DNA of 64,000 nt, from contig DATFOS010000172.1 of NCBI GenBank assembly GCA_035265325.1, positions 5,653 through 69,652 of the forward strand, read 5' to 3'. Below the pieces are notes generated by a model. That model was not told the origin of the DNA. It saw nothing but the letters and a program-made list of their open reading frames with translations, and did not search any database. The position numbers and the translations under genes are program-made. This stretch comes from Acidimicrobiales bacterium. Lineage in GTDB: Bacteria > Actinomycetota > Acidimicrobiia > Acidimicrobiales > VFJN01. Shown here in pieces: positions 47,663 to 62,162 of the stretch; position 1 is the stretch's first letter, and the number at the start of each line of letters is the position of its first letter.

Positions 47663-48066
47663 CCCACGACCCGGGCGTCGTCGAACTGCCAGAACGCCCG
47701 CAGGGCGGCCAGGCGCCCGTCGTCGGCGATCCGGTAGGTGTAGACGCCCTCCACCGCCACGTCGGTGCCGTCGGGCAGCGTGGTGGTGATCGTGCCGACG
47801 TTCGCGCACTCGGGGCCTGCCGCGTACGACTCGCGGATCGTGAAGCGGATGGTGTTGCCGGCGATCACCGTGTCCCAGAAGGCGGCGATGGCCTCGGGCC
47901 CCTGGTGGCCGTGGCCCTCGGGGTCGAAGGGCGACGGCCCGATCGGGTCGGCGACCACGGCGTCGTCGGCGAAGCCGGCCAACCAGGCGGCGCGGTCGCC
48001 GGCCTCGGCGGCCGTCATCGAGTGGATCGACGCCGCCCGGGCCGGGTGCTCGGCGTAGCCCTCCAT
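47659..48066 (-). CDS. NTF2/SnoaL-fold ketosteroid-isomerase-like protein
   Basis: FADDAVVADPIGPSP...PEAIAAFW resembles the KSI ADDATVEDPFG...IAAFY segment and the Asp is conserved. The oxyanion Tyr is not obvious. ATG 48066 or 48018. Confidence 0.65.
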   Translation of the reverse strand: MEGYAEHPARAASIHSMTAAEAGDRAAWLAGFADDAVVADPIGPSPFDPEGHGHQGPEAIAAFWDTVIAGNTIRFTIRESYAAGPECANVGTITTTLPDGTDVAVEGVYTYRIADDGRLAALRAFWQFDDARVVG

Positions 48067-48215
48067 GCCCTCCACGTGCGGACCTCCCCGTCCCTGCCGG
48101 GCCCCGGGCCCGGCTCGGGCCGACGGTAAACCGCCCCCGGTGTCGCGTCGCCGCCCGCCACCACGCCCGGACCGCCAGGTGGGACGCGCCTGACCCCGCC
48201 GGGGCGGCCTCGTGC

Positions 48216-48229
48216 GGGACATGGTTCCC
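48216..48229. promoter_or_regulatory. weak distal DosR-type box
   Basis: GGGACATGGTTCCC matches 11 of 14 positions of the local consensus. Confidence 0.25.
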
Positions 48230-48329
48230 ACCTCTCGCGAGCGCGGCACCGAACCCGCCGGTACCGTGCATTCCGCCAGCGTTGATCGCCCCACGTGCGG
48301 CCCGGCAGGGTCGTTGCGACGAGCGAACC

Positions 48330-48343
48330 GGGACCAAGGTCCC
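48330..48343. promoter_or_regulatory. DosR/DevR-type box upstream of the GNAT-USP gene
   Basis: GGGACCAAGGTCCC matches the GGGAC-N4-GTCCC core of the DosR consensus. It lies 59 nt upstream of ATG 48403. Confidence 0.6.
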
Positions 48344-48402
48344 TGTCGCGGCCGCCGTGCCCGCCCCACGCTGGGGGCGATCGCGATGTAGGAGGTGCAA
48401 CG

Positions 48403-49761
48403 ATGCCGACGACGTTCGGGACGCCCGCCGGTTCCCGCCAACTCGAGGTGCGGCCGCTCGACGACGAGGACGTCGGGCAACTGGACGCCCTGTGCCAGCG
48501 CCAGTCGTCCGACAGCCTCCGGCGGCAGTTCTTCGACCCCGCGCCGCCGACGCGCGACCGCCTCGACCGCCTCACGGCGCATGACGACGGTCGCGGGGTT
48601 GCCATCGTCGCCCTCGCCGGCGGCACGCTCGTCGGTGCCGCCCGCTACGACCGCGTCGATGCCGGCGACAGCGCCGAAGCCTGGGTGTTCGTCGACGAGG
48701 CCGTCGCCGACCCGGAGGTCGACGTCCGGCTCCTGACCGAACTCGCCCGCATCGCCCGGGAGGCCGGTATCCGCCGCCTGCTCGTCGAGGTGCACCCGCT
48801 GGACCGCGAGCTGCTCGAGACGCTCGACGCCACCCCGCTCCACACCGAGCGGCACCTCCACTGCGGCATCGTCACGGTCACCGTCCACCTGGACCCGGCG
48901 GCGTCTCGCGCCCGCCCCCAGGGTGGGGACCCGGCGGCCCTGCTCTGTCGCAGCGTCCTGGTCCCCGTCGACTGTTCGCCGTTCGCCGAGAAGGCCGTCG
49001 CCGCCGGCGACTGGCTCGCCCGCCGGCTCGGCGCCGAGCTGCACGTCGCCACCGGCGTGCTCGCCCACGACCCCTGGTGGGACGACCGCTACCTGGCCCG
49101 CATCCGGTCCACCTACCGGCGGGCGCAGACCCACCTGTGGACGCACTCGGACATCGCGGGCGGCGTCGCCCGCCTCGCCGACGACATCGGCCCCACCGTG
49201 CTCTGCGCCGCCACCCACGGCCGCTCCCGGAGCGCGTCGGTCGTCGGCTCGACCTTCCTCGCCATGGCCCGGGCGACCGACGTCCCGGTCGTCGCCGTGG
49301 GCCAGGAGGCCCGCCCGCCCCAGGCAGCCGACCTCCCGATCGTGGCCTGCGTCGACGGCAGCCTCGCGTCGGAGTCCGTCCTGCCCGGGGCCGCCACCTG
49401 GGCCCGCCGCCTCGGCGTGCCGCTGGACCTCGTCACGGTGGCCGACGCGGACGGCGGCCCGGACGCCGAGCCGGTCCGCTTCGGCGGCGCCCGGCGGGAC
49501 GCGGCGGAGTACCTGGAGGAGCTGCTCGCCGGCCCCGAGCTCGCCGGGCTGACCGCCAAGTCCGAGGTGCTCTCCGACCGTGTGGCGCCGCACCACGCCA
49601 TCGCCGACCGGCTCGCCCGCCGGCCGGCCACACTCGTCGCCCTGGCATCGCGCGCCCGCACGGGCCTGGGGCGCATGCTCGTCGGCAGCGAGGCGGCCCG
49701 CATCATCCAGGCCAGCCCCGTGCCCGTCCTGGTGCACCGGGTCGTCGGCGGCGGCGCCTGA
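48403..49761 (+). CDS. Pat-type GNAT domain fused to two universal stress protein (USP) domains
   Basis: N-terminal LEVRPLDDEDV...LRRQFF...VGAARYDRV...AEAWVFV (Pat-like GNAT), then two USP-like units (VLVPVDCSP...VPVVAVG and IVACVDGS...VPVLVHR). GGAGGTG RBS. DosR-type box 59 nt upstream. Confidence 0.75.
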   Translation: MPTTFGTPAGSRQLEVRPLDDEDVGQLDALCQRQSSDSLRRQFFDPAPPTRDRLDRLTAHDDGRGVAIVALAGGTLVGAARYDRVDAGDSAEAWVFVDEAVADPEVDVRLLTELARIAREAGIRRLLVEVHPLDRELLETLDATPLHTERHLHCGIVTVTVHLDPAASRARPQGGDPAALLCRSVLVPVDCSPFAEKAVAAGDWLARRLGAELHVATGVLAHDPWWDDRYLARIRSTYRRAQTHLWTHSDIAGGVARLADDIGPTVLCAATHGRSRSASVVGSTFLAMARATDVPVVAVGQEARPPQAADLPIVACVDGSLASESVLPGAATWARRLGVPLDLVTVADADGGPDAEPVRFGGARRDAAEYLEELLAGPELAGLTAKSEVLSDRVAPHHAIADRLARRPATLVALASRARTGLGRMLVGSEAARIIQASPVPVLVHRVVGGGA

Positions 49762-49798
49762 CCGGGCCACGGCGTCGGCCGCGACGATCGGCAGCGCC

Positions 49799-50860
49799 AT
49801 GGACGTCCGCAGCCGCCGCGTCGCCTGGGCGCTCGGCGCCCTCGCGCTCGTCGTCCCGCTCGGCGTCGTCCTCGCCCGGGGCGGAGGCGGGGACGACGGC
49901 GAGGGAGGGCCGACGGACGGGCCGCCATCCACCGGCGCTTCGCTCACGACGTTCCCCCTGCTCGGCACGGCCGGGGACGCGCCGGACCGGCCGGCCCTGG
50001 CCGTCAAGCTCGACAACACGTCCAGCGGGCGGCCGCAGTCGGGGCTGGACGGCGCCGACGTCGTGGTCGAGGAGGTCGTCGAGGGCGGGCTGACGCGTCT
50101 CCTCGCCGTCTTCCACTCGCAGGTCCCCGACACGGTCGGCCCGGTCCGGTCGGCCCGCTCGACCGACATCCCGCTGCTGGCCGAGCTGGGGCGGCCCCTG
50201 TTCGCCTGGTCCGGCGCCAACCCGACCTTCGCCGCCGCCGTGCACGCCGCCGACCTGGTCGACGTGGGCGCCGCCGCGGCGCCCGACGCCTATCGGCGAA
50301 GTGACGACCGCAGCGCCCCGTACAACCTGTACGCGTCGCCCGAGCTCCTGTGGGCCGCAGGCGAGGCGAGTGACCCCGACGCCGGCCCGCCGGACGCCCT
50401 GTTCACCTACCGGGCGGCGGGGGCGGCGCTCCCGCCCGACGCCGAGCCCGCCGGCGGGTTCGCCGCGAACGGCGGGGACGGCCTCGCCACGGACGTCCGC
50501 TGGACGTGGGACGGCACCAGCGACCAGTGGGCCCGGGCCCAGGACGGCACGGCCCACGTGGACGCTGACGGCACGCAGGCCCACGCCACCAACGTCGTGG
50601 TCCGCTTCACGCCCTACCGAGACAGCGGTGTCCGGGACTCCACCGGCGCCGTCGTCCCCGAGGCCGCCAGCGTCGGCGAGGGCGACGCCTGGCTGCTCAC
50701 CGACGGGCACCTCCGGCGCGGTCGCTGGCACAAGGCCGACGCCGAGGCCCCCACCACCTACACCGCCCTCGACGGATCGGCGCTCGAGCTCACGCCCGGC
50801 CCGACGTGGGTCGAGATCCTCCCTCCGGGCTCCGGCGACGTCGTCGCCAGCGAGCCGTGA
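49799..50860 (+). CDS. DUF3048 domain protein with N-terminal signal/anchor
   Basis: RPQSGLDGADVVVEEVVEGGLTRLLAVFHSQ hallmark. Hydrophobic N-terminus WALGALALVVPLGVVLA. Confidence 0.75.
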   Translation: MDVRSRRVAWALGALALVVPLGVVLARGGGGDDGEGGPTDGPPSTGASLTTFPLLGTAGDAPDRPALAVKLDNTSSGRPQSGLDGADVVVEEVVEGGLTRLLAVFHSQVPDTVGPVRSARSTDIPLLAELGRPLFAWSGANPTFAAAVHAADLVDVGAAAAPDAYRRSDDRSAPYNLYASPELLWAAGEASDPDAGPPDALFTYRAAGAALPPDAEPAGGFAANGGDGLATDVRWTWDGTSDQWARAQDGTAHVDADGTQAHATNVVVRFTPYRDSGVRDSTGAVVPEAASVGEGDAWLLTDGHLRRGRWHKADAEAPTTYTALDGSALELTPGPTWVEILPPGSGDVVASEP

Positions 50861-51014
50861 CCCGCTCACAGGATGCCAGGTGATGTCGCCTTAACTCGGC
50901 GCCGACATGGTCGTCTGGTCGGGGGCGCCGGCCTGACCGGGGCCGAGGGAGGGCGGGCGCCTGGGCGGGGGGGACCCGGGCGCCGGGTCGCCCGCGGCGT
51001 ACGATCGGCGGCCC

Positions 51015-52316
51015 ATGGCCGGCCGGTACCCGAATCGCGTCCCCGACCACGACGTCCGGCTCGCCCGACTGCGGGAGTGGCTGAACACGGGCCTGTGGTT
51101 CCTGCCCATGGTGTGGGCGTTCGCCTCGATGGCGGCCGCCCTGGCGCTGGTGGCGGTGGACCGGCGGCTGGGCGGCGACGACCCCAGCTGGCTCGTATTC
51201 GGGCGGGGCGTCGACAGCGCCCGCCAGGTCCTCGCCGTCATCTCCGGCTCGACGATCGCCTTCACCGGGACCGTCTTCTCCATCACGATCGTCGCCCTCC
51301 AGCTGGCCAGCACGCAGTTCTCGCCGCGGGTGCTGCGCACGTTCCTGCGGGACCGGGCCACCCAGCACTGCTTCGGCACCTTCGTCGCCACCGCCCTGTA
51401 CTCGCTGATGGTCCTGCGCGAGGTCGGCACGCCTGGCCTCGAGGTGCCCGGGCTCGCCATCTCGGGCGCCTTCGTGCTGATCGTCGGCAGCGTCTTCGCC
51501 TTCGTGTTCCTGGTCCACCACGTCGCCCAGTCGGTGCGGGCGGTGTCGATCATCGACGCCGTGGCCTCCGAGACCCGGGCCTCGGTCGAGGCGAATCATC
51601 CGGCCGCGGCGGCCGACCCGTTCGCCGGCGCCGCGGCGCCCGCCGCGCCGCCCCGCCAGGTGATCGGCCTGGACCACGGGCCCGGCGTCCTGCTCGGCGT
51701 GGACGAGGACAACCTGGTCGCCGTGGCGCGCCGCCACGACTGCGTGCTTCAGGTCGTTCCCACGGTCGGCGACTTCGTGCCGACCGGAGCGCCGGTGGTC
51801 CGCGTCCACGGCTACACCGACGTCCCCCCCGGCGCGGTGCTCGACCACGTCGGGATCGGGCCCGAGCGCACGCTCTACCAGGACACGGCCTTCGGCATCC
51901 GCCAGCTCGTCGACATGGCCGAGAAGGCGCTCTCCCCCGCCGTCAATGACCCGACCACGGCCGTGCAGTGCCTCGACCGCATCCACGACATCCTCCGCCG
52001 CCTCGCCCCACGGCCGCTCGCCTCCGGCCGCTACGGCGACGAGGACGGCCGCCTGCGCCTCGTCGTCCCCCAGGCGAGCTGGGACGACTACGTCCACCTG
52101 GGCTTCGACGAGATCCGGCACTTCGGCATCGGCTCGATCCAGGTGCCGCGGCGCATGCGGGCCGCCCTCGACGACCTCCTCACCGTCGTCCCGCCCGACC
52201 GCCGGGCGGTGGTGGAGAGCCAGCTCGCGGCGCTCGACCGGGCCGTCGACCGCACCTACGCCGAGCCCGACGAGCGCGCCCGGGCCATGGCATCCGACCT
52301 GCAGGGCATCCGCTGA
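51015..52316 (+). CDS. DUF2254 domain membrane protein
   Basis: Four predicted TM segments and the hallmark QLASTQFSPRVLRTFLRD. Confidence 0.8.
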   Translation: MAGRYPNRVPDHDVRLARLREWLNTGLWFLPMVWAFASMAAALALVAVDRRLGGDDPSWLVFGRGVDSARQVLAVISGSTIAFTGTVFSITIVALQLASTQFSPRVLRTFLRDRATQHCFGTFVATALYSLMVLREVGTPGLEVPGLAISGAFVLIVGSVFAFVFLVHHVAQSVRAVSIIDAVASETRASVEANHPAAAADPFAGAAAPAAPPRQVIGLDHGPGVLLGVDEDNLVAVARRHDCVLQVVPTVGDFVPTGAPVVRVHGYTDVPPGAVLDHVGIGPERTLYQDTAFGIRQLVDMAEKALSPAVNDPTTAVQCLDRIHDILRRLAPRPLASGRYGDEDGRLRLVVPQASWDDYVHLGFDEIRHFGIGSIQVPRRMRAALDDLLTVVPPDRRAVVESQLAALDRAVDRTYAEPDERARAMASDLQGIR

Positions 52317-53847: not shown

Positions 53848-54065
53848 CGGCCGGCACGCCCCTCCCCACCGAGGCGTCGCCCGAGGGCCCGTCCGGGCAG
53901 TGCCGAACGGCCCTACCGGCACCGGGCGGTCGGGCAGATCCTGGAGGCGGAAAGCGACCTGCCATGGCCACGATCCCGGCCGACGCGCCCACCGCTATCG
54001 ATGACTGACCACGCCGGGCCGGGAGACCGCCAGGTGCCCGGCCTCACCGGACCGAAAGGCCTGCC

Positions 54066-54719
54066 GTGACCATCCGTGTGTTCCTGCTCGACGACCACGA
54101 GCTCGTCCGAGCCGGCGTGCGTGACCTGATCGAGACCGACGGCGACATCGAGGTCGTCGGCGAGGCCGGCACCGTGGACGAGGCCATCCGCCGCGTGCCC
54201 GCCACGAGGCCCGACGTCGCCATCCTCGACGTGCGGCTGCCCGACGGCAACGGCGTCGAGGCGTGCCGCGACATCCGCTCGTCGCACCCCGAGGTGCGGT
54301 GCCTGATGCTCACGTCGTACTCCGACGACGACGCCCTGTTCGACGCCATCATGGCCGGCGCCTCCGGCTACCTCCTCAAGCAGGTGCGCTCGAATGACCT
54401 GATCGAGAGCGTCCGCCGGGTCGCCGCCGGCCAGTCCCTGCTCGACCCCGCCCTCACCGCCACGGTGCTGGAACGCATGCGGAACCCCCCGCAGCAGGAC
54501 GAGCAGCTCAAGCGCCTCACCGAGCAGGAGCGCCGCATCCTCGACCTGCTTGCCGAGGGCCTGACCAACCGCCAGATCGGCGAGCGGCTGTTCCTCGCCG
54601 AGAAGACCGTCAAGAACTACGTGTCCAACCTGCTGCTCAAGCTGGGCATGCACCGGCGCACCGAGGCGGCCGTCTACGCCGCCCGCATCGCCGAGCGCCG
54701 CGACCGCCACGCCACCTGA
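54066..54719 (+). CDS. devR: NarL/LuxR-family response regulator, DevR/DosR ortholog
   Basis: VFLLDDHELVR, PDVAILDVRLPDGNG (phospho-Asp), LTEQERRILDLLAEGLTNRQIGERLFLAEKTVKNYVSNLLLKLG. About 60 percent identical by eye to recalled DosR. Confidence 0.8.
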   Translation: MTIRVFLLDDHELVRAGVRDLIETDGDIEVVGEAGTVDEAIRRVPATRPDVAILDVRLPDGNGVEACRDIRSSHPEVRCLMLTSYSDDDALFDAIMAGASGYLLKQVRSNDLIESVRRVAAGQSLLDPALTATVLERMRNPPQQDEQLKRLTEQERRILDLLAEGLTNRQIGERLFLAEKTVKNYVSNLLLKLGMHRRTEAAVYAARIAERRDRHAT

Positions 54720-55323: not shown

Positions 55324-55337
55324 GGGCCGAAGGTCCC
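55324..55337. promoter_or_regulatory. DosR/DevR-type box upstream of the PPOX gene 54834..55286
   Basis: The minus strand reads GGGACCTTCGGCCC, 37 nt upstream of the start. The 14-mer is identical to the box at 62149. Confidence 0.5.
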
Positions 55338-55349
55338 AAGGCCTGATGG

Positions 55350-56630
55350 TCACAGGTAACCGAGCCGCTGGGCGTCGCCGGTGAGCTCGTCCCGGAACGC
55401 CGGGTGGGCGATGGCGATCAGCGCGCGGGACCGCTGGGCGATGGAGCGGCCCCGCATGTCCGCCACGCCGTACTCGGTGACGATGTGGTCGACCGTGTTC
55501 TTCAGGGTCGTGACCATGGAGCCCTGGGTGAGCGTCGCCCGGATGCGCGACACCTTGCCGCCCGCCGCCGTCGAGGGCAGGACCACGAAGGCCCGGCCGT
55601 CCCGCGAGTACATCGCGCCGCGGGCGAAATCGGCCTGCCCTCCGCTCGACGACCAGTAGCGCCCCGCCACGGTCTCGGACGCGCACTGCCCGACGAGGTC
55701 GACCTCGGTGGTGGCGTTGATCGAGACGAAGCAGTCCTCCTCGGCGATCACCCGCGGGTCGTTGACGAAGTCCACCGGCAGCAGCTCGACCGCCGGGTTC
55801 TCGTGGAGGAAGTCGTAGAGGCGCTCCGTGCCGAGCGCGAACGTCGTCACCACCTTCCCCGGCGCCAGCGTCTTGCGGGTGCCGTTCACCACGCCCTTCT
55901 CGACCAGGTCGATCATCCCGTCCGACAGCAGCTCGGTGTGGACGCCCAGGTCGCGGTGGCCGGCCAGGCCCGCCAGCAGGGCATTCGGGATCGACCCGAT
56001 CCCGGCCTGGATGGTCGCCCCGTCCGGGATGCGCTCCACCACGTGGCCGGCGATGCGACGGTCGACGGCGGACGGCTCGGCGGGCGGCACCTCGACCAGC
56101 GGCCGGTCGACCGCCGTCCAGCCCGCCACCTGGCTGACGTGAAGCTGGTTGCGCCCGAACGTCCGGGGCATCCGGGCGTTGACCTCGAGGAAGAACGGCA
56201 CCTTCCCCACGAACGGCGCCACGTAGTCGCAGTTCGTCCCGAGCGAGAAGTAGCCGTGGCGGTCCATGCGCGACGCCGCCGCCACGACCAGCGAGCACGA
56301 CGTCGTCTCCCGCAGGAGCCGGGGCACCTCGCTGAAGTTGTTGGGCACCAGCTCCAGCTGGCGGGCGTGGAAGGCCGGCCGGGTCACCGGCGACAGGAAG
56401 TACGAGACGTGCGTCAGCCGGCCCGGGTAGGCGCCGTGCAGGTAGGGCCGGTCGTACAGGGCGTGCATCTGGTGCACCCGCACGTGCGCGAACCGACCGG
56501 CGGCGGCCCCGGCCTCGAGGGCGTCGAGCACCGAGACCGGCTCGCCGTTCGCCAGCGGGACGATCACGTCCGCCCCGTCGGTCACCAGCTCGAGGACGGT
56601 GTCCGGTGTCGTCGGGGTACCTCCGGTCAT
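55350..56630 (-). CDS. acetyl-CoA hydrolase/transferase family protein (4-hydroxybutyrate CoA-transferase-like)
   Basis: GATIQAGIGSIPNALL, HTELLSDG, INATTEVDLVGQ, SSSGGQADF. Confidence 0.8.
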   Translation of the reverse strand: MTGGTPTTPDTVLELVTDGADVIVPLANGEPVSVLDALEAGAAAGRFAHVRVHQMHALYDRPYLHGAYPGRLTHVSYFLSPVTRPAFHARQLELVPNNFSEVPRLLRETTSCSLVVAAASRMDRHGYFSLGTNCDYVAPFVGKVPFFLEVNARMPRTFGRNQLHVSQVAGWTAVDRPLVEVPPAEPSAVDRRIAGHVVERIPDGATIQAGIGSIPNALLAGLAGHRDLGVHTELLSDGMIDLVEKGVVNGTRKTLAPGKVVTTFALGTERLYDFLHENPAVELLPVDFVNDPRVIAEEDCFVSINATTEVDLVGQCASETVAGRYWSSSGGQADFARGAMYSRDGRAFVVLPSTAAGGKVSRIRATLTQGSMVTTLKNTVDHIVTEYGVADMRGRSIAQRSRALIAIAHPAFRDELTGDAQRLGYL

Positions 56631-57346
56631 CCCGCCATCTTGGCGCCCGTCGCCCCGTCCGGCGCAGCCGTCGCCTCGGCCCGGGCCTTCAGGTTGAGCA
56701 GCATCCGGCGCTCCATCAGGAAAGCACCGGGGTCGGCGAGCAGCCCCCACACGACGGCGCCGAGCGAGCGCGGGGGCGGCAGACGGAAGCGACTGAGCAG
56801 CCGGCTGCGGCCCCGGCCGGTCGCGGTGAGGCGCAGGCACCAGGTCGTGCCGTCGGGGGCCTGGCTTAGCATGAGCTCCCCGGGCACGACGAGCCGGATC
56901 GTGAAGCCCATGTCCGGCGTCATCAGGATCGTGTCGCCCACCGCCAGGCGCTGCAGGCGGGGATCGAGGTCGTCGGCGCTCGGATGGCCGTCGTTGTCGA
57001 TCCAGTCGTAGCTGTACCAACCGCCACGGCCCCACCCCAGCTGGACCAGCCACGGCCACACGTCGGTGGGCAGGGCGTCGATCGTGACCGCCCGGTCGCT
57101 CTGGTGGGCGGTCCCCGGCAGGAGCTCGTCGCCCGGCAGGCTGTGGCGGGCCTCGTCGAGCGTCGACCCCCAGCGGCGGTGCCACGGCCCGACATAGAGC
57201 CGGTAGCCGTTGAGGACGACGATCAGGCCGATGAGGAGGGCCCAGCCGCCGGCGTCGCCGCCGAGCACGACGAGCAGCGCGCCGGCCGCGAGCGCGGCGG
57301 CGAGGCCGGCCAGCACGATCAGGACGATGGTGCGTCGGGTGTGCAC
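56627..57346 (-). CDS. membrane-anchored SRPBCC (polyketide-cyclase-like) family protein
   Basis: Two N-terminal hydrophobic helices, then VWPWLVQLGWGRGGWYSYDWID. GGAGGAG RBS before GTG 57346. ATGA overlap with the downstream gene. Confidence 0.7.
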   Translation of the reverse strand: MHTRRTIVLIVLAGLAAALAAGALLVVLGGDAGGWALLIGLIVVLNGYRLYVGPWHRRWGSTLDEARHSLPGDELLPGTAHQSDRAVTIDALPTDVWPWLVQLGWGRGGWYSYDWIDNDGHPSADDLDPRLQRLAVGDTILMTPDMGFTIRLVVPGELMLSQAPDGTTWCLRLTATGRGRSRLLSRFRLPPPRSLGAVVWGLLADPGAFLMERRMLLNLKARAEATAAPDGATGAKMAG

Positions 57347-57362
57347 CGTGGGCTCCTCCCGC

Positions 57363-58145
57363 TCAGCCGGGGGCCGGGACGACGAGGACGGGGTGCGGCG
57401 CGTGCCGGACCACGGCGCGTGCGACGGCGCCGAGCGGCGGGTGGCCCGGGCCGGCCCGGTGCGCCGGCCCGCCACCGCCGACCACGACCAGGGGGGCGTC
57501 CATCTCGGCCGCTGCCACGAGGATGCCCTCGGCCGCGTCGTCGCCCTCCATCAGGTCCCAGTGGGCGTCGATGCCGTCCGCCTGCAGGGCCGCCCAGGCC
57601 GCAGCCGCCGGCCGGCCCGCCGCCCGGTCCTCGGCGGCGTCGACGACCTGCAGGACGCGCACCTTCACGTCGAGGGCGGCGGCCCAGGCACAGGCTGCCG
57701 CGGCAACGCCGGCGGACGACGGCGAGTCGTCGACGCAGGCCAGGAGGCTGGCGACGTGGGGTCGGGCGCGGCGCACCTCGGGCCCGACGAGCACGATCGG
57801 CCCGTCGCGGCGGAGCAGCTCGTTGGCGACGCTGTGGAAGACCAGGTCGGCGGCCGGGCCGCGCACATGGGTGGCGACGCAGAGTGTGGCGTCCCGGGCC
57901 GTCGCCTCGGCGAGGATGCCGGCGGCGACGTGGTCGTCGGCGGTGACGTGGATGGCGTCGAGTCGCACGCCCGCGTGGCGGGCGTGCCACAGGAGCTCCT
58001 CGGCGTCGTCGTCGGCCGAGGCGGCGCCGGAGACGACGACCCCCTCGAGGCGGGCACCGGTGGCGTCCGCGAGGGAGCGGCCGACCGGCAGGGCCCGGTC
58101 GGCCTCCTCGCCGAAGTCCAGCGGGACGAGGATGGTGCGGGTCAT
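57363..58145 (-). CDS. tandem universal stress protein
   Basis: TILVPLDFGEEADRAL and LLACVDDSPSS units, each ending in PxVLVxP-type strands. ATG 58145 forms ATGA with the CBS stop. GTG 58154 is an alternative. Confidence 0.75.
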   Translation of the reverse strand: MTRTILVPLDFGEEADRALPVGRSLADATGARLEGVVVSGAASADDDAEELLWHARHAGVRLDAIHVTADDHVAAGILAEATARDATLCVATHVRGPAADLVFHSVANELLRRDGPIVLVGPEVRRARPHVASLLACVDDSPSSAGVAAAACAWAAALDVKVRVLQVVDAAEDRAAGRPAAAAWAALQADGIDAHWDLMEGDDAAEGILVAAAEMDAPLVVVGGGGPAHRAGPGHPPLGAVARAVVRHAPHPVLVVPAPG

Positions 58146-58591
58146 CGTGGCCACCTCACGCGCTCTCCGAAGCCGCCGACCAGGAGGAGCACGCCTTCCG
58201 GAGGGAAGGCCTGGAGCAGGACGGCGAGGAGGTCCCGGATCGAGACGACGCCCACCGCCCGGCCGCCCTGGACCACCACCAGGTGGCGGACGCCCTCGTC
58301 CAGCATGCGGGCGGCGGCGGCCACGACCGTGGCGTCGCGGTCGACCGTGGCCGGGCGGGGCGTGGCGAGCTCGGCCGTCAGCGTGTCGGGGGCCCGCCCG
58401 TCGGCGACCGCCGCCGTCACGTCCCGCTCGGTGAGGATGGTCACGAGTGCTCCGGGCGTCCCGACCACCAGGGCCGACACGCCCTCCTGCCGCATGGTCC
58501 GGGCGGCGATGCGGAGCGACGCCTCGGGCTCGATCGTGACGAGCGGCCGGAACGGCAGGTCCCGCACCAGCGGCACGTCGGTGGCGGTCAT
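58142..58591 (-). CDS. CBS-pair domain protein (Hrp1/Rv2626c-like)
   Basis: Two CBS repeats (GVSALVV...TERDV and GVRHLVVV...SIRDLL). ATG 58591 is preferred because GAGGAGGA lies 7-8 nt upstream. Confidence 0.75.
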   Translation of the reverse strand: MTATDVPLVRDLPFRPLVTIEPEASLRIAARTMRQEGVSALVVGTPGALVTILTERDVTAAVADGRAPDTLTAELATPRPATVDRDATVVAAAARMLDEGVRHLVVVQGGRAVGVVSIRDLLAVLLQAFPPEGVLLLVGGFGERVRWPR

Positions 58592-58628
58592 GGTGGTTCC
58601 TCCTCGTTGCGTCATTCCGGCGGGCCTG

Positions 58629-60116
58629 TCACCCGGCCGGCTCGACCACGACCGCGGTGACCATGCCGAACATGCCGGTCTCCCGCTCGACGTGGTTCAG
58701 GATGTGGCAGTGCCAGACCCAGGTGCCGGGCCTGTCCAGGTGGACGAGCACCGAGTACCGCTCCCCCGGCGCCACGTTGACCGTGTCGGCCACGTAGGGG
58801 TTGTCCAGGGGGTACCCGTCCTTGGCCACGACCACCTGGTCGAACTGGTGGAGGTGCATGGGATGGATCTGGCTGCCCTCGTTCATGTAGTGGACGAGGA
58901 CCCAGTCGCCCTCGTCGGCGACGATCGGCGTGGTGGCCGGGAAGCTCTTGCCGTTGAGCGACAAGCCGATGACCCCGCTGTCGTTGAGCACGAGCGGCAT
59001 CTCCTGGCTCACGCGCAGGTCGGCGGGGATGGCCTCGTCGCCGATGGTCTGGCCGCGGTGCAGGTCCATCCGGCCCACGAGCAGGGTGCCGAGCAGCCCG
59101 TTCGGGACCTGCATCTGGCCGTGGTGGTGGGCGTGGTACATCGCCACCGCGGCCTCGTCGGCGGTGAAATCGTAGGTGAACGACTCACCGGGCTCGATCG
59201 ACGGCTGGGTCAGCGGGGCGACGCCGTCCATGTCGTTCTCCACGTTGATGCCGTGGAGGTGCAGGTCGGTCGCCATGGGGAGGTCGTTCTGCAGCTCGAT
59301 GCGCACCCGGTCGCCGACGTCCACCGCGATCTGGGGGCCGGGGACCATGCCGTTGTACGTCCAGGCGTCGACCGTGGTGCCCGGCTCGACCTCCCACGGC
59401 GTGATCTCGGCAGTGAGCTCGAAAACCTTGGTGCCGTCGGCCTCGACCCGGGGCTCGAGGACCTGGTTGCCGACGCCCTCGGTCTCGGCCGGGTAGGCCA
59501 GGATCGACTCGTCCATCGCCGCGCTCATCTCGGCGTACTGCTCCTCCGTCATCGTGTCGCCGCCGGCGGCCGACGAGCCGCTGTCGGACATGGCCGACAT
59601 GTCGTGGCCGGCGGAGGACATCGAGGCGCCGTCGCCGCCGGCTGCGCCGCCGATCGTGAGCGTGCCGGTCATGCCCGAGTCGGCGTGGCCGGCGATCGTG
59701 CACAGCACGTCGTAGTCACCGGGTGCCAGGCCCGACAGGTCGAGCGTCTCGCTCTCGCCGCCGGCCAGGTCGGCCGTGACGACGTCGGTGCCTTCGACCG
59801 AGAAGTTGTGGGCGGCGGTCCCGCCGTTCGTCACGGTCAGGCTGCCGCCCTCCGGCACGGTGATGGCGGCCGGGCTGATGGCGAACTCGCTCAGCGACAC
59901 GGTCACGGGGGTGCCGGCGCCGCCGGCCGTCCCGCCGTCGTCGTCGCCGCCCAGCAGCGCCACGACCGTGGCGATGAGCAGGGCCAGCACGGCGAGGACC
60001 ACGGCGAACCCGGCGAGCCCGAGGTTGCCCTCGTTCTCCGGCGCCGTCCGGGGGGAGGGCCGGGGCGGGTCACCGCTGCCATCGCCTGCCGTGACGGGGG
60101 GCTCGATCGTCTGCAC
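58629..60116 (-). CDS. membrane-anchored cupredoxin fused to a two-domain multicopper oxidase via a Met/Ser/Gly-rich linker
   Basis: TM helix. Type-1 Cu site HNF...CTIAGHADSGM. Linker MSSAGHDMSAMSDSG. MCO motifs HLHG, YHAHHH, HPMHLH, WHCHILNHVERETGM. GAGGAG RBS before GTG 60116. Confidence 0.75.
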   Translation of the reverse strand: MQTIEPPVTAGDGSGDPPRPSPRTAPENEGNLGLAGFAVVLAVLALLIATVVALLGGDDDGGTAGGAGTPVTVSLSEFAISPAAITVPEGGSLTVTNGGTAAHNFSVEGTDVVTADLAGGESETLDLSGLAPGDYDVLCTIAGHADSGMTGTLTIGGAAGGDGASMSSAGHDMSAMSDSGSSAAGGDTMTEEQYAEMSAAMDESILAYPAETEGVGNQVLEPRVEADGTKVFELTAEITPWEVEPGTTVDAWTYNGMVPGPQIAVDVGDRVRIELQNDLPMATDLHLHGINVENDMDGVAPLTQPSIEPGESFTYDFTADEAAVAMYHAHHHGQMQVPNGLLGTLLVGRMDLHRGQTIGDEAIPADLRVSQEMPLVLNDSGVIGLSLNGKSFPATTPIVADEGDWVLVHYMNEGSQIHPMHLHQFDQVVVAKDGYPLDNPYVADTVNVAPGERYSVLVHLDRPGTWVWHCHILNHVERETGMFGMVTAVVVEPAG

Positions 60117-60222: not shown

Positions 60223-60236
60223 GGGACCTTGGTCCC
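60223..60236. promoter_or_regulatory. DosR/DevR-type box upstream of the multicopper oxidase operon
   Basis: GGGACCTTGGTCCC is the exact reverse complement of the box at 48330, so it has the same orientation relative to its gene. Confidence 0.6.
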
Positions 60237-60243
60237 GGCGCGA

Positions 60244-61422
60244 TCAGGGACGGACGGCCTCGGCCGCGGCCTGGTGGGCAACGCAGAAGCGGGCGGCCGG
60301 GACGGCCACGAGGCGCTCGTCCGGGATGACGACGTTGCAGGCCTCGCAGCGGCCGTAGGCGCCGCGGGCCAGGCGGAGCAGGGCGTCGCGCACGGCGGCG
60401 ACCTCGCCGTCCACCTCGTGGAGCAGCGAGAGGTCCCGCGTGCGCTCGAACGTCTCCGTGCCCAGGTCGGCCGGGTGCTGGTCGGCGCCGCTCAGCTCCC
60501 CGACGTCCTGGCACTCGGTCATGGCGTCGAGGCCCTCGCCCCACAGTGTCCGCTGCACCGCCCGGAGGCGGTGCAACTCCGCCACCAGGCGCCGGCGGGC
60601 GATCGACGGTTCGGCGAGCGACGGCGGGGCGTCGACCGGCACCACGACGCCGTGGCCGCCGTCCCAGCGCCGGTACACGACCATCGCCCGATCGGTCGTG
60701 GGGTCCACCACGACGACGAAGGGCTCGCCGCTCAGCTCCAGGCGTTCGGCGGCCGCCGCCGGGTCGAGGACGGGCGGCGGCGGCTCGATCACGACCTCCT
60801 CGTCGACGCACCGCACGGCCTCGGCGGCCGGCGCCCGGCCGTCGTGGCGGACGAGGCCCAGTCGGCCGTCGCCGCGGTGGTGCACGACGGCGTCGGCGCC
60901 GGTCCCGAGCTCGCGGAACAGCAGGAACTCGCCGTCGAGCATCTCGAGGTCGAAGACGGCCTCGTCCAGCGTGGACTCCGCCGGCGACAGGGTCCGGCGG
61001 CGCACGACGGGCCGCTCGGGCGGCTCTCGCTCGGCCCGGGCGGCGGCGTGGGCCGGCGCCCCCCACGACCGCGCCGGCCGGCGCCCGCTCCGGTGCCGCT
61101 CGCCGAGACGGACCAGCTGGTCGTGGAGCCGTGCCTGGGCGACATCGACGGCCGCCAGGGCGGTGGCGCCCAGGGCGTGCGCCCGGACGACCCGGCCGTC
61201 GACGTCCATGGTCGCCCGCGCCGTCCACCGGTGGTCGTCCGACGGGTCGTCCGACCGGGCCACGCGCAGCCCGACGTGGATGACGGGCGCGGGGGCGACC
61301 CGGACGAGCCGCCGCAACTTGGTCGTGGCGTACGCCTCCACGATGGACGGCGTCCCGACGCCGAGTCGAAGCTCGACGGGCGGCGGCGGTGGCGGCCGGT
61401 CGCGGCGTGAGGTGATCGTCAT
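60244..61422 (-). CDS. Rv0079-like ribosome-hibernation-factor homolog with C-terminal TraR/DksA-type zinc finger
   Basis: N-terminal HPF-like fold and two S30AE-C-like repeats (FLLFRELGTGADAVVHHRGDGRLGLV and FVVVVDPTTDRAMVVYRRWDGGHGVV), then GAYGRCEACNVVIPDERLVAVPAARFCVAH. AGGAGGG RBS before ATG 61422. Confidence 0.7.
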   Translation of the reverse strand: MTITSRRDRPPPPPPVELRLGVGTPSIVEAYATTKLRRLVRVAPAPVIHVGLRVARSDDPSDDHRWTARATMDVDGRVVRAHALGATALAAVDVAQARLHDQLVRLGERHRSGRRPARSWGAPAHAAARAEREPPERPVVRRRTLSPAESTLDEAVFDLEMLDGEFLLFRELGTGADAVVHHRGDGRLGLVRHDGRAPAAEAVRCVDEEVVIEPPPPVLDPAAAAERLELSGEPFVVVVDPTTDRAMVVYRRWDGGHGVVVPVDAPPSLAEPSIARRRLVAELHRLRAVQRTLWGEGLDAMTECQDVGELSGADQHPADLGTETFERTRDLSLLHEVDGEVAAVRDALLRLARGAYGRCEACNVVIPDERLVAVPAARFCVAHQAAAEAVRP

Positions 61423-61481
61423 GTAACCCTCCTGAGGTCGAGCGGATCGGTGGAGGTCGGGGCCGGGTGGGCGACGGGCCG

Positions 61482-62090
61482 TCAGGCCACGCACGAGATC
61501 GAGATGGACTCGTCGTCGACGCCGGCGGCGCGGAAGGCTTGGTGGATCCGGGCGGCGATGGCGCCGTCCGACGTCGACGCCGCCGCAGGGCGGTGCACCA
61601 CGACCCGCAGGTCCCGCCCGCGCCGGTCGACCGCGGCCCGCACGTCGCCGCCCGCCCCCTGCAGGCCGTCGTCGACGACGCGCCGGGTGACGATGGCGGC
61701 GGTGGCGGCCAGGTCGTTGAGGTGCCGGCGGACCGCGTCCTCGCAGGCGTCCACGACGTCGCCGTCGCTCACGGCCACGGTGGTCCAGCGGGCGAAGGGG
61801 TTGGGCCAGCCGGCGCCGTGGACGACGAGGGGCACGTGCCGGCGGACGGCGCACGTCGTGCCCTGCTCATGGACCACCGGGTGCGGCTCGTCCTCGGACC
61901 GGACGTCGACCGCGACGTCGACGCCGCCGGGCAGGTCGAGCGGGCAGGCATCCCGGTCGAGCCCGACGCAGGGGCGGGACGGCCCGGCGTCGCGGTCGAA
62001 GCACCGCACGACCTCGTGGCCGGCGGCTCCCAGGCGGGCGGCCGTGGCGTCGGCGAGGCCCGGCGTCGTCTCGATGCAGAGTATGCGCAT
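61482..62090 (-). CDS. hypothetical Cys-rich protein (202 aa)
   Basis: High GC3 in frame and ordinary composition. Begins MRILCIETTPGLADATAARLGAAGHEVVRCF. Seven Cys residues. No family recognised. Confidence 0.55.
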   Translation of the reverse strand: MRILCIETTPGLADATAARLGAAGHEVVRCFDRDAGPSRPCVGLDRDACPLDLPGGVDVAVDVRSEDEPHPVVHEQGTTCAVRRHVPLVVHGAGWPNPFARWTTVAVSDGDVVDACEDAVRRHLNDLAATAAIVTRRVVDDGLQGAGGDVRAAVDRRGRDLRVVVHRPAAASTSDGAIAARIHQAFRAAGVDDESISISCVA

Positions 62091-62148: not shown

Positions 62149-62162
62149 GGGACCTTCGGCCC
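62149..62162. promoter_or_regulatory. DosR/DevR-type box in the divergent region between 61482..62090 and the zinc-finger-USP gene
   Basis: GGGACCTTCGGCCC lies 35 nt upstream of ATG 62198. Confidence 0.5.

What the first reader, a model, noticed from the sequence alone, without database searches (positions are those of the whole stretch)
48403..49761. Pat-type GNAT with a degenerate acetyl-CoA loop fused to two USP domains
The N-terminal roughly 170 aa match the protein-lysine acetyltransferase (Pat) type of GNAT (LRRQFF, VGAARYDRV, AEAWVFV). The position of the Q/R-x-x-G-x-G/A pyrophosphate-binding loop reads ADPEVDV, with no glycine. The rest of the protein is two USP domains. In mycobacteria a cAMP-regulated Pat-type GNAT is known to acetylate a USP. 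This protein therefore joins an enzyme-like domain to its known class of substrate, possibly as an inactive sensor or decoy. It is driven by the best DosR-type box in the window.
Basis: partly seen in the sequence, partly recalled or inferred. Interest (0 to 1): 0.6.

Follow-up and report, generated by a model that had tools for sequence, protein, structure and literature searches.

The report
Dead Pat-type acetyltransferase fused to stress-protein domains
This gene from an uncultured soil actinobacterium joins a probably inactive copy of a protein-acetylating enzyme domain to two universal-stress-protein domains; it belongs to a previously unnoticed clade of such degenerate domains, all preceded by binding sites of the type used by the low-oxygen dormancy regulator DosR.

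Summary
ORF 48403-49761 (+) encodes 452 aa. Residues ~12-165 form a PatA/Pat-type GNAT domain (4NXY E=1e-12; Foldseek TM 0.75-0.80). A flexible linker and an Rv2623-like tandem USP follow.

In every alignment the acetyl-CoA diphosphate loop is replaced by A-D-P-E-V-D (PatZ P-loop G822-L-G824 = E105-V-D107). The near-invariant α4 Asn is Asp134 and the acceptor-pocket Arg is Gln42.

This is not a one-off. The 13 closest relatives form one clade among 144 PatA-type GNATs, and all have degenerate loops. They occur standalone, overlapping a tandem-USP gene by 4 nt, fused to CBS, or next to dosR/dosS-like genes. The domain is under purifying selection (dN/dS 0.36-0.60).

Every clade gene with readable upstream DNA carries a DosR-type palindrome 64-116 bp before its start. 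In the window this is a perfect GGGACCAAGGTCCC centred at -66. A DevR/DosR ortholog with an identical recognition helix lies 4.3 kb downstream.

The fusion family has no conserved lysine, so the USP part is not a conserved acetylation substrate in cis.

Best reading: a non-catalytic, DosR-controlled "pseudo-Pat" binding module coupled to USP domains, which in relatives bind nucleotides. The decoy mechanism is inferred, not shown. I rate it a new variant of a known kind.

The parts
48216..48229 (.). Imperfect palindrome GGGACATGGTTCCC, 114 bp upstream of the main box. It is a possible secondary box, or it may serve the divergent SnoaL/FAD operon.
   Evidence: 1 mismatch to GGGACNNNNGTCCC. It is conserved only in close relatives L010/L012, so the conservation is uninformative.
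48330..48343 (.). DosR/DevR-type box, the perfect palindrome GGGACCAAGGTCCC, centred 66 bp upstream of the ATG.
   Evidence: GGGMCNWWNGKCCC matches 4 times against 0.18 expected, with 0/100 shuffles reaching 4; an equivalent box lies upstream of every clade gene with readable upstream DNA.
48390..48395 (+). Shine-Dalgarno AGGAGG, 7 nt before the ATG.
   Evidence: sequence
48403..49761 (+). ORF of 452 aa plus stop: pseudo-Pat GNAT, linker, tandem USP.
48436..48897 (+). GNAT-like domain (aa 12-165) of PatA/Pat type.
48526..48528 (+). Gln42, at the position of the acceptor-pocket Arg (PatZ R754; Arg in 138/139 canonical PatA GNATs).
   Evidence: PatZ mutagenesis in PMC12184503
48676..48678 (+). 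Glu92, equivalent to the catalytic Glu (SlPatA E123, PatZ E809). It is retained here but variable in the clade.
48706..48723 (+). Degenerate motif A, A102-D-P-E-V-D107, in place of Q/R-x-x-G-x-G/A. E105-V-D107 corresponds to the PatZ P-loop G822-L-G824.
48802..48804 (+). Asp134, replacing the near-invariant Asn at the start of α4.
   Evidence: canonical N in 132/139; clade D in 14/15
48853..48867 (+). Clade-specific H151-L-H153-C154-G155 on β6. Canonical proteins have x-x-E/D-D-G here.
48898..48942 (+). Low-confidence linker (aa 166-180).
   Evidence: pLDDT <50 for residues 166-178
48943..49317 (+). USP domain 1. Nucleotide-loop motif is A-TH-G-x8-GS (aa 270-284).
49333..49743 (+). USP domain 2. 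Nucleotide-loop motif is A-SR-A-x9-GS (aa 415-429).
54066..54719 (+). DevR/DosR ortholog, the likely regulator acting on the box. Its recognition helix FLAEKTVKNYVS is identical to Mtb DosR, including K179, K182 and N183.
   Evidence: E=2e-77 to 3C3W over the full length
53900..53913 (.). One-mismatch box GTGCCGAACGGCCC upstream of dosR.
55324..55337 (.). DosR-type box GGGCCGAAGGTCCC upstream of the Pyridox_ox_2 gene (- strand).
60223..60236 (.). Second perfect palindrome GGGACCTTGGTCCC, upstream of the NirK-like multicopper oxidase gene (- strand).
62149..62162 (.). DosR-type box GGGACCTTCGGCCC between the divergent unknown 201-aa gene and a tandem USP gene.

Best explanation
The gene encodes a DosR-regulon protein of an uncultured Acidimicrobiales-like actinobacterium.

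Its N-terminal domain descends from the lysine-acetyltransferase GNAT domain of actinobacterial PatA. It belongs to a distinct clade that has lost the acetyl-CoA diphosphate-binding loop and the α4 Asn. In the fusion subgroup the acceptor-pocket Arg is lost as well. The domain is therefore most likely unable to bind acetyl-CoA or transfer acetyl groups.

It is kept by selection as a non-catalytic module that works with a USP pair of the Rv2623 type, which binds ATP. The pairing is in cis in this protein. In relatives it is in trans with a translationally coupled USP, or with a CBS pair.

Expression is driven by the DevR/DosR ortholog through the palindrome centred at -66, so the protein would be made under hypoxia or redox stress together with USPs, LDH, a NirK-like oxidase, HPF and PNPOx-like proteins.

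The most likely mode of action is binding rather than catalysis. The dead Pat domain would hold a partner, either the USP pair itself or a client of active Pat enzymes such as USPs, DosR K182 or acyl-CoA synthetases. This would relay the USP state or shield the client from acetylation.

Shown: homology, motif losses, clade structure, selection, regulon membership by conserved boxes, gene neighbourhoods.

Inferred: loss of acetyl-CoA binding, the binding function, and any decoy effect.
For: Domain identity:
- 4NXY E=1e-12.
- Foldseek to 4NXY/4U5Y at TM 0.75-0.80, and to Rv2623 for the C-terminal half.

Losses at the cofactor and acceptor sites:
- E105-V-D107 sits where PatZ has its P-loop G822-G824 (PMC12184503).
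- Canonical PatA GNATs have G at position 105 in 134/139, G/A at 107 in 137/139, N at 134 in 132/139 and R at 42 in 138/139.
- The fusions have E/Q, D/E/G, D and Q at these positions.
- No alternative motif exists in the domain.

Clade: 13 degenerate sequences are monophyletic among 144 in a neighbour-joining tree.

Selection:
- The loop VDEAVADPxV is identical in homologs down to 67% identity.
- dN/dS is 0.36-0.60 for the N-domain and 0.30-0.35 for the USP part.

Coupling to USP and CBS domains:
- The fusion is seen in 4 clusters.
- The standalone gene overlaps a tandem USP gene by 4 nt in L002-L005. That USP is of a different subfamily.
- A CBS fusion exists, P0037.
- An independent USP-USP-GNAT fusion with an intact motif exists, P0157.

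DosR link:
- A DevR ortholog with an identical recognition helix is in the window.
- The box motif matches 4 times against 0.18 expected.
- All 14 clade genes with usable upstream sequence, about 8 independent lineages, have a box at -64 to -116. Background is 0.08-0.37 per kb.
- Standalone members sit next to NarL-type response-regulator and GAF-HisKA_3 kinase genes.

No conserved Lys in the fusion family.

Literature: Rv0998 acetylates DosR K182 and lowers its DNA binding (PMC5861037). Ms/MtPatA acetylate the USP MSMEG_4207 (PMC6640162).
Against: - No biochemical data exist.
- The diphosphate of acetyl-CoA is held largely by main-chain amides, so side-chain changes alone do not prove loss of binding.
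- The window protein keeps the catalytic-Glu equivalent E92.
- Some standalone clade members keep R-x-x-G (GRAEGVE) and may still bind CoA.
- The acceptor-pocket Arg is also lost in the fusions. This weakens the idea that they still dock lysine-bearing clients.
- The AF2 pTM of 0.57 gives no confident GNAT-USP interface.
- Several standalone members have no adjacent USP.
- The USP nucleotide motifs deviate from G-2x-G-9x-G(S/T), so ATP sensing is uncertain.
- dN/dS is inflated and noisy at GC3 around 0.95.
- No active PatA gene is seen in the window.
Confidence: 0.55

Rival explanations
1. The former acetyl-CoA cleft has been rebuilt into a new ligand, metal or redox site. The candidate residues are clade-specific Asp134, His151, His153 and Cys154, plus Glu92. 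The domain would then be a sensor that controls the attached USP pair, rather than a protein-binding decoy.
For: - The clade-specific replacements are directional and conserved: N134 to D in 14/15, E/D153 to H in 14/15, D154 to C/S in 13/15, Y40 to R.
- The regulon context is hypoxia and redox (hemerythrin, NirK-like oxidase, LDH, PNPOx-like proteins).
- Other Pat relatives pair the GNAT domain with ligand sensors (PMC6434083; PMC12184503).
Against:
- His151 and Cys154 are not invariant.
- No known metal-site or ligand-site pattern was matched.
Confidence: 0.2
2. The domain is still an active acyltransferase. It would bind its donor in a non-canonical way, or use a different acyl donor, and modify a partner in trans.
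For: - Glu92 is retained.
- The GNAT fold and the β4/β5 region are predicted with good confidence.
- P-loop contacts are partly through main-chain atoms (general knowledge of GNATs).
- Some clade members keep R-x-x-G.
Against: - Three independent functional positions are changed together in the fusions: the P-loop (with a Pro and two or three acidic residues), Asn134 and Arg42.
- The catalytic Glu is not conserved across the clade: E in 5-6, D in 5, others in 4.
- Canonical relatives conserve all of these positions at more than 95%.
Confidence: 0.12
3. The N-terminal domain is a decaying remnant without function. The protein is simply one more DosR-regulated tandem USP.
For: - Pfam barely detects the GNAT domain (21.0 against a 20.7-bit cut-off).
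- Databases annotate the protein only as a USP.
- The closest USP relatives are plain tandem USPs of about 290 aa.
Against: - The domain is intact and well folded in AF2.
- dN/dS is below 1 and similar to the USP part.
- The degenerate loop is itself conserved down to 67% identity.
- Homologous domains persist as independent genes with their own DosR boxes in about 8 lineages.
Confidence: 0.08

Closest known systems
Actinobacterial PatA (S. lividans SlPatA; PDB 4NXY, 4U5Y): an N-terminal GNAT domain followed by an NDP-forming acyl-CoA-synthetase-like regulatory domain.
   Same: It is the closest sequence and structure match for aa 12-165 (E=1e-12; TM 0.75-0.80; 30% identity). The GNAT domain is likewise N-terminal. 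The RFF segment, the AE(V/A) β4 strand and the IRR(L/F) β5 strand are shared.
   Different: SlPatA has an intact HQGRGxA motif, the α4 Asn and the acceptor Arg. Here these read ADPEVD, Asp134 and Gln42. The roughly 700-aa ACS-like domain is replaced by a tandem USP.
Mycobacterial cAMP-regulated Pat (Rv0998/MtPatA, MSMEG_5458/MsPatA; PDB 4AVB).
   Same: It has a Pat-type GNAT fold (Foldseek E=3e-9). It has functional links to the same partners: it acetylates the USP MSMEG_4207 at K104 and DosR at K182. It also has a sensor-domain-plus-GNAT architecture.
   Different: It is an active enzyme with a cNMP-binding domain at the N-terminus. It is not known to be DosR-regulated. The window protein lacks the cofactor motif and has no conserved lysine that could be a target.
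Rv2623, the DosR-regulated ATP-binding tandem USP of M. tuberculosis (PDB 2JAX, 3CIS).
   Same: It is the best structural match for aa 181-447 (E=2e-12, TM 0.65-0.70). It has a tandem USP architecture and is DosR-regulated.
   Different: Rv2623 has no N-terminal extension. It has G-2x-G-9x-GS in both domains, whereas the window protein has A-x2-G-x8-GS and A-x2-A-x9-GS.
USP-USP-GNAT proteins with an intact motif (P0157 cluster, uncharacterised, metagenomic).
   Same: They are an independent fusion of a tandem USP with a Pat-type GNAT.
   Different: The domain order is reversed. Motif A (YQGKGIG), the Glu and the Asn are intact. The proteins are lysine-rich and come from a lower-GC organism. 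They are presumably active, USP-regulated Pats.
Catalytically inactive GNAT domains in multidomain proteins, for example the N-terminal GNAT domain of mycothiol synthase MshD (from my own knowledge, not tested here).
   Same: A GNAT fold is retained for a structural or binding role without catalysis.
   Different: Those are internal duplications within an active enzyme. Here no active GNAT is present in the protein, and the dead domain also exists as a standalone, separately regulated gene.

Membership tests
GNAT superfamily (fold) | β1-α1-α2-β2-β3-β4-α3-β5-α4-β6-β7 topology and structural similarity to solved GNATs. | tested here: met
   The AF2 secondary-structure order matches. Foldseek hits to 4NXY, 4U5Y, 4AVB, 9IT0, 2VI7, 1VHS and others have E values from 2e-12 to 1e-7.
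Pat/PatA-type protein lysine acetyltransferase GNAT subfamily (ancestry) | The closest sequence relatives are Pat-type GNAT domains. | tested here: met
   The best PDB hits are SlPatA, then PatZ. The exhaustive search returns mainly 800-900 aa GNAT+ACS-like PatA proteins.
Active Pat-type acetyltransferase | Motif A Q/R-x-x-G-x-G/A, the P-loop that binds the acetyl-CoA diphosphate. | tested here: not met
   The aligned position reads A-D-P-E-V-D. No alternative motif exists in the domain. The P-loop role is taken from PMC12184503.
Active Pat-type acetyltransferase | Catalytic Glu on β4 (SlPatA E123, PatZ E809). | tested here: inconclusive
   Glu92 is present in the window protein. In the clade the position is E in 5-6, D in 5 and other residues in 4.
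Active Pat-type acetyltransferase | Conserved acceptor-pocket Arg (PatZ R754) and α4 Asn. | tested here: not met
   The window has Gln42 where canonical proteins have R in 138/139. It has Asp134 where canonical proteins have N in 132/139.
Active Pat-type acetyltransferase | Binds acetyl-CoA and acetylates a protein lysine. | not testable with these tools
   This needs ITC or DSF and in vitro acetylation assays.
Universal stress protein family (tandem type, Rv2623-like) | Two Usp (PF00582) domains with the USP α/β fold. | tested here: met
   Pfam Usp at 7e-23. Foldseek to 2JAX, 3CIS and 3AB8 at E around 1e-12.
ATP-binding USP subclass (UspFG/MJ0577 type) | G-2x-G-9x-G(S/T) nucleotide-binding motif. 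| tested here: inconclusive
   Domain 1 has A-TH-G-x8-GS and domain 2 has A-SR-A-x9-GS. The GS is kept, while the first Gly in both domains and the second Gly in domain 2 are Ala. Binding itself was not tested.
DosR/DevR regulon member | A DosR-type palindrome upstream and a DosR ortholog in the genome. | tested here: met
   A perfect GGGACCAAGGTCCC is centred at -66. The motif is enriched at 4 against 0.18 expected. A DevR ortholog scores E=2e-77 with an identical recognition helix. The box is conserved upstream of clade genes in about 8 lineages.
DosR/DevR regulon member | Induction by hypoxia, NO or CO in a DosR-dependent way. | not testable with these tools
   This needs expression data, EMSA or ChIP.

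The most novel reading that the evidence does not exclude
The degenerate clade would be a family of DosR-induced 'anti-acetylase' pseudoenzymes. These are dead Pat domains made under hypoxia that occupy Pat clients (DosR K182, USPs, acyl-CoA synthetases) or an active PatA. They would keep those clients unacetylated and so reinforce the dormancy programme as a positive-feedback element. USP or CBS domains would tune this according to adenine-nucleotide status.
Probability: 0.15. Interest if true: 0.8.

Novelty: new variant of a known kind. Interest (0 to 1): 0.55.

Why it matters
In mycobacteria, acetylation by Pat enzymes restrains the DosR dormancy response and modifies USPs. A conserved, DosR-controlled Pat paralog that has lost its cofactor site points to a non-catalytic layer in this circuit, acting as a pseudoenzyme partner, decoy or sensor. 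That layer has not been described.

The finding yields a defined protein family that can be tested directly. Its members occur standalone, fused to USP domains, or fused to CBS domains.

It also shows that current annotation misses the domain entirely. Database records call these proteins 'universal stress protein' or 'hypothetical protein'.

The limits are that the family is so far seen only in uncultured Acidimicrobiales-like metagenome sequences, and its function is inferred.

Tried and rejected
- NCBIfam gave only sub-threshold UspF/UspG hits.
- Two scans of GTDB species-representative genomes found nothing: one with the fusion N-domain patterns and one with standalone-clade patterns. An attempt with the broad alignment A3 failed for lack of conserved stretches. 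No cultured or named genome could therefore be tied to the family.
- The JGI metagenome scan returned a single locus, 100% identical (L013).
- A 39-sequence MAFFT alignment (A7) misaligned the standalone GNATs onto the USP region. I discarded it and used A9 for AF2 instead.
- The full 20-nt M. tuberculosis DosR consensus gave almost no hits. The 14-nt core palindrome, relaxed to GGGMCNWWNGKCCC, was the informative pattern.
- The plain pattern GGGACNNNNGTCCC with one mismatch is not enriched: 10 matches against 12 expected.
- The sigma-70 promoter and intrinsic-terminator scan found nothing, as expected at 77% GC.
- Rfam found nothing credible in 47900-50000.
- The context of the closest plain tandem USP (P0006) was uninformative, because the gene lies at a contig end.
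- tblastn found no GAF-HisKA_3 kinase, AAA_33 protein or canonical PatA in the window.
- The reading 'USP as acetylation substrate in cis' was rejected for lack of any conserved lysine.
- The T. thermophilus CoA-transferase/pseudoenzyme preprint turned out to be unrelated.
Full report
**1. What is there.**
The window is about 75% GC. The ORF 48403-49761 (+) has the codon-position GC signature of a real gene, with GC3 of 0.94. An AGGAGG lies 7 nt before the ATG. Four full-length homologs begin at the same Met. An alternative GTG at 48295 would place the regulatory palindrome inside the coding region, so I reject it.

Pfam reports Usp at 7e-23 and a borderline Acetyltransf_1 at 21.0 against a 20.7-bit cut-off. 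NCBIfam has nothing above threshold.

**2. The N-terminal domain is a Pat-type GNAT.**
- phmmer against PDB sequences gives the GNAT domain of S. lividans PatA (4NXY/4U5Y) at E=1e-12 over residues 15-158.
- A profile of the four fusion N-domains gives 5e-13. It also picks up, weakly, the GNAT domain of E. coli PatZ (9IT0, residues 725-880).
- An exhaustive HMMER search of 1.84 billion representatives gives 1679 hits, 153 of them at <=1e-10. Most are 800-900 aa proteins with the GNAT domain at the N-terminus.
- Pfam confirms that examples of these are GNAT + CoA_binding + Succ_CoA_lig + ATP-grasp, which is the actinobacterial PatA architecture.
- AlphaFold2 gives the full GNAT topology (20-row alignment A9, mean pLDDT 75.9, pTM 0.57).
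- Foldseek ranks 4NXY/4U5Y (TM 0.75-0.80, rmsd 2.3-2.5, 30% identity) with Rv2623 at the top. Rv0998 (4AVB) and PatZ (9IT0) come further down.

**3. The cofactor loop is degenerate, and other sites are changed too.**
All alignments place canonical HQGRG(V/L)(A/G) onto V101-A-D-P-E-V-D107. This is the junction between β4 (90-97) and α3 (104-120) in the model.

Counting along the PatZ alignment, E105-V106-D107 correspond to G822-L823-G824. The PatZ structure paper names these residues as the phosphate-coordinating P-loop, and E809 as the catalytic Glu (PMC12184503). E809 aligns with Glu92.

Conservation among about 139 canonical family members:

| Position | Canonical | Fusions |
|---|---|---|
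| 105 | G in 134 | E/Q |
| 107 | G/A in 137 | D/E/G |
| 134 | N in 132 | D |
| 42 (PatZ R754; its Ala mutant loses activity) | R in 138 | Q |

No [QR]xxGx[GA] match occurs anywhere in the domain.

**4. It is a clade, not an accident.**
The closest relatives of the N-domain are small proteins of 130-194 aa (P0034-36, 38, 39, 45, 183-188), plus a 326-aa protein with a C-terminal CBS domain (P0037). All have degenerate loops: PTPRLDL, PRPDVDL, CDQDVDV, RGADVEA, RDDDLEV, REDDIEV, or the milder GRAEGVE.

In a neighbour-joining tree of 144 domains, the 13 degenerate sequences form one clade. Shared derived states are N134 to D, E/D153 to H, D154 to C/S and Y40 to R. The catalytic Glu varies across the clade.

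The loop VDEAVADPxV is identical in fusion homologs down to 67% identity. dN/dS is 0.36-0.60 for the N-domain and 0.30-0.35 for the USP part. The domain is therefore maintained by selection. The absolute values are inflated by the extreme GC3.

**5. The C-terminal half.**
Residues 181-447 are two USP domains, closest to the DosR-regulated tandem USP Rv2623. The nucleotide-loop motifs read A-TH-G-x8-GS and A-SR-A-x9-GS, against G-2x-G-9x-GS in Rv2623. ATP binding is therefore uncertain. These loops are also the low-confidence parts of the model (273-281 and 417-427).

The fusion family has no conserved lysine. The window protein has K197 and K386, neither conserved, and P0003 has no lysine at all. 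This argues against the USP part being a conserved acetylation substrate in cis.

**6. Regulation.**
The palindrome GGGACCAAGGTCCC (48330-48343) is centred 66 bp upstream of the ATG. The relaxed pattern GGGMCNWWNGKCCC matches four times in 64 kb against 0.18 expected, and 0/100 shuffles reach four. All four matches lie beside gene starts in the 48-63 kb segment. A fifth, one-mismatch site lies upstream of the response-regulator gene.

That regulator (54066-54719) is a DevR/DosR ortholog. It scores E=2e-77 to 3C3W over its full length. Its recognition helix FLAEKTVKNYVS is identical to M. tuberculosis DosR, including K179, K182 and N183.

The neighbouring genes are typical of dormancy regulons:
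- L-lactate dehydrogenase
- two Pyridox_ox_2 proteins
- an acetyl-CoA hydrolase/transferase
- two further tandem USPs
- a CBS protein
- a NirK-like multicopper oxidase
- an HPF-like protein

A 0-1 mismatch box lies 64-116 bp upstream of the start codon in every clade gene for which upstream DNA is available. That is 14 loci, representing about 8 independent lineages. The background rate is 0.08-0.37 sites per kb.

**7. Neighbourhoods of relatives.**
- The standalone gene P0184 overlaps a downstream tandem-USP gene by 4 nt in four contigs. That USP belongs to a different, canonical-motif subfamily, so the GNAT-USP pairing arose more than once.
- P0183, P0185, P0186 and P0045 lie immediately beside a NarL-type response regulator and a convergent GAF-GAF-HisKA_3-HATPase kinase, a DosS/T-like architecture. 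Pyridox_ox_2, acetyl-CoA hydrolase/transferase, USP and a roughly 495-aa AAA_33 gene are nearby. The response regulator next to P0045 is 81% identical to the one in the window.
- P0328 lies near hemerythrin and P-type cation ATPase genes, and P0187 lies next to a P-type cation ATPase gene.
- Fusion homologs P0001 and P0002 are syntenic with the window. P0003 sits among CBS, LDH, an unknown 202-aa gene and a tandem USP.
- Separately, P0157 is a USP-USP-GNAT protein with an intact motif A.

**8. Origin.**
Named relatives of the adjacent DUF2254 protein come from Acidimicrobiales and Acidimicrobiia MAGs. One member of the 90% cluster of the fusion is NCBI HKH05949.1, from an Acidimicrobiales MAG and annotated only as 'universal stress protein'. 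Scans of GTDB species representatives found no member of the fusion or of the standalone group.

**9. Interpretation.**
The evidence supports a non-catalytic, Pat-derived domain that is a standing member of DosR-type regulons and is repeatedly coupled to USP or CBS domains, families whose members typically bind adenine nucleotides.

In M. tuberculosis, Rv0998 acetylates DosR K182 and lowers its DNA binding, and deacetylation accompanies hypoxia (PMC5861037). Ms/MtPatA acetylate a USP (PMC6640162). Active Pats commonly carry ligand-binding regulatory domains (PMC6434083; PMC12184503).

I therefore favour a binding-only role. The domain would partner the USP pair, or act as a decoy for Pat clients, and would be produced under DosR control.

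The specific decoy step is inference. The loss of the acceptor Arg in the fusions and the lack of a confident interdomain interface (pTM 0.57) count against a simple version of it.

The rivals are a rebuilt ligand, metal or redox site (D134/H151/H153/C154), residual non-canonical catalysis, and a vestigial domain. I rank them in that order.

**10. Verdict.**
- Novelty: a new variant of a known kind, namely a pseudoenzyme clade derived from PatA GNATs.
- I found no paper combining the terms 'USP domain' and 'GNAT domain'. That search covers only the held open-access library.

Noticed in passing
P0157 (protein cluster, metagenomic; not in the window): A 485-aa protein with two N-terminal USP domains and a C-terminal Pat-type GNAT. 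Its motif A (YQGKGIG), Glu and Asn are intact. It is an apparently active USP-regulated Pat in the reverse domain order, seen in 9 cluster members.
   Followed up: partly
P0037 (326 aa, JGI metagenome): A degenerate-loop Pat-like GNAT fused to a CBS domain. This is a second kind of fusion of the clade to a domain type that commonly binds adenine nucleotides.
   Followed up: partly
window 60244-61434 (-): A hibernation-promoting-factor-like protein (Ribosomal_S30AE + S30AE_C) carrying a C-terminal DksA/TraR C4 zinc finger, directly upstream of the DosR-box-controlled NirK-like gene (same gene in L010).
   Followed up: partly
window 61488-62090 (-); L011:1947-2555; L002:4050-4661: A roughly 201-aa protein with no Pfam hit recurs next to pseudo-GNAT/USP genes and behind DosR-type boxes. 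It is 90% identical in L011 and 56% in L002. It is an uncharacterised conserved regulon member.
   Followed up: partly
L001:5985-6000, L002:1697-1712, L007, L008, L009 (just 5' of the start codons): The leader sequence GAAGACGAAAGGAG is conserved immediately upstream of standalone pseudo-GNAT genes, although the proteins are only 35-57% identical and the rest of the intergenic DNA differs.
   Followed up: no
window 56627-58630 vs L010: The window carries three genes between the acetyl-CoA hydrolase/transferase gene and the NirK-like gene: an unknown 264-aa gene, a tandem USP and a CBS-pair protein. The relative L010, whose fusion protein is 98% identical, lacks them. This is a strain-level indel inside the DosR island.
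   Followed up: no
window 1-64000: tblastn finds no GAF-HisKA_3 sensor kinase and no AAA_33 protein in the window. In relatives these lie next to the pseudo-GNAT gene. The DosR ortholog is therefore an orphan within these 64 kb.
   Followed up: partly
window ~11800-47700: A large block of lipid/steroid-type catabolic genes. It includes two AMP-binding acyl-CoA ligases, a thiolase, an acyl-CoA dehydrogenase, two KstD-like FAD_binding_2 proteins, a SnoaL-like protein, NMO, amidohydrolase_2, a luciferase-like monooxygenase, SDRs and an IclR regulator. Acyl-CoA ligases are classical Pat substrates.
   Followed up: no
window 49748-52316 (+): A DUF3048 protein and a DUF2254 membrane protein follow the fusion gene on the same strand. 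No terminator-like site was detected, and the order is conserved in L010 and L012. They are possibly co-transcribed.
   Followed up: no
window 53900-53913: A one-mismatch DosR-type box (GTGCCGAACGGCCC) lies about 160 bp upstream of the dosR ortholog, suggesting autoregulation.
   Followed up: no
NCBI HKH05949.1 (Acidimicrobiales MAG) and JGI records: Public annotations call the fusion 'universal stress protein' and call the standalone clade members 'hypothetical protein'. The GNAT-derived domain is not recognised by precomputed Pfam.
   Followed up: yes
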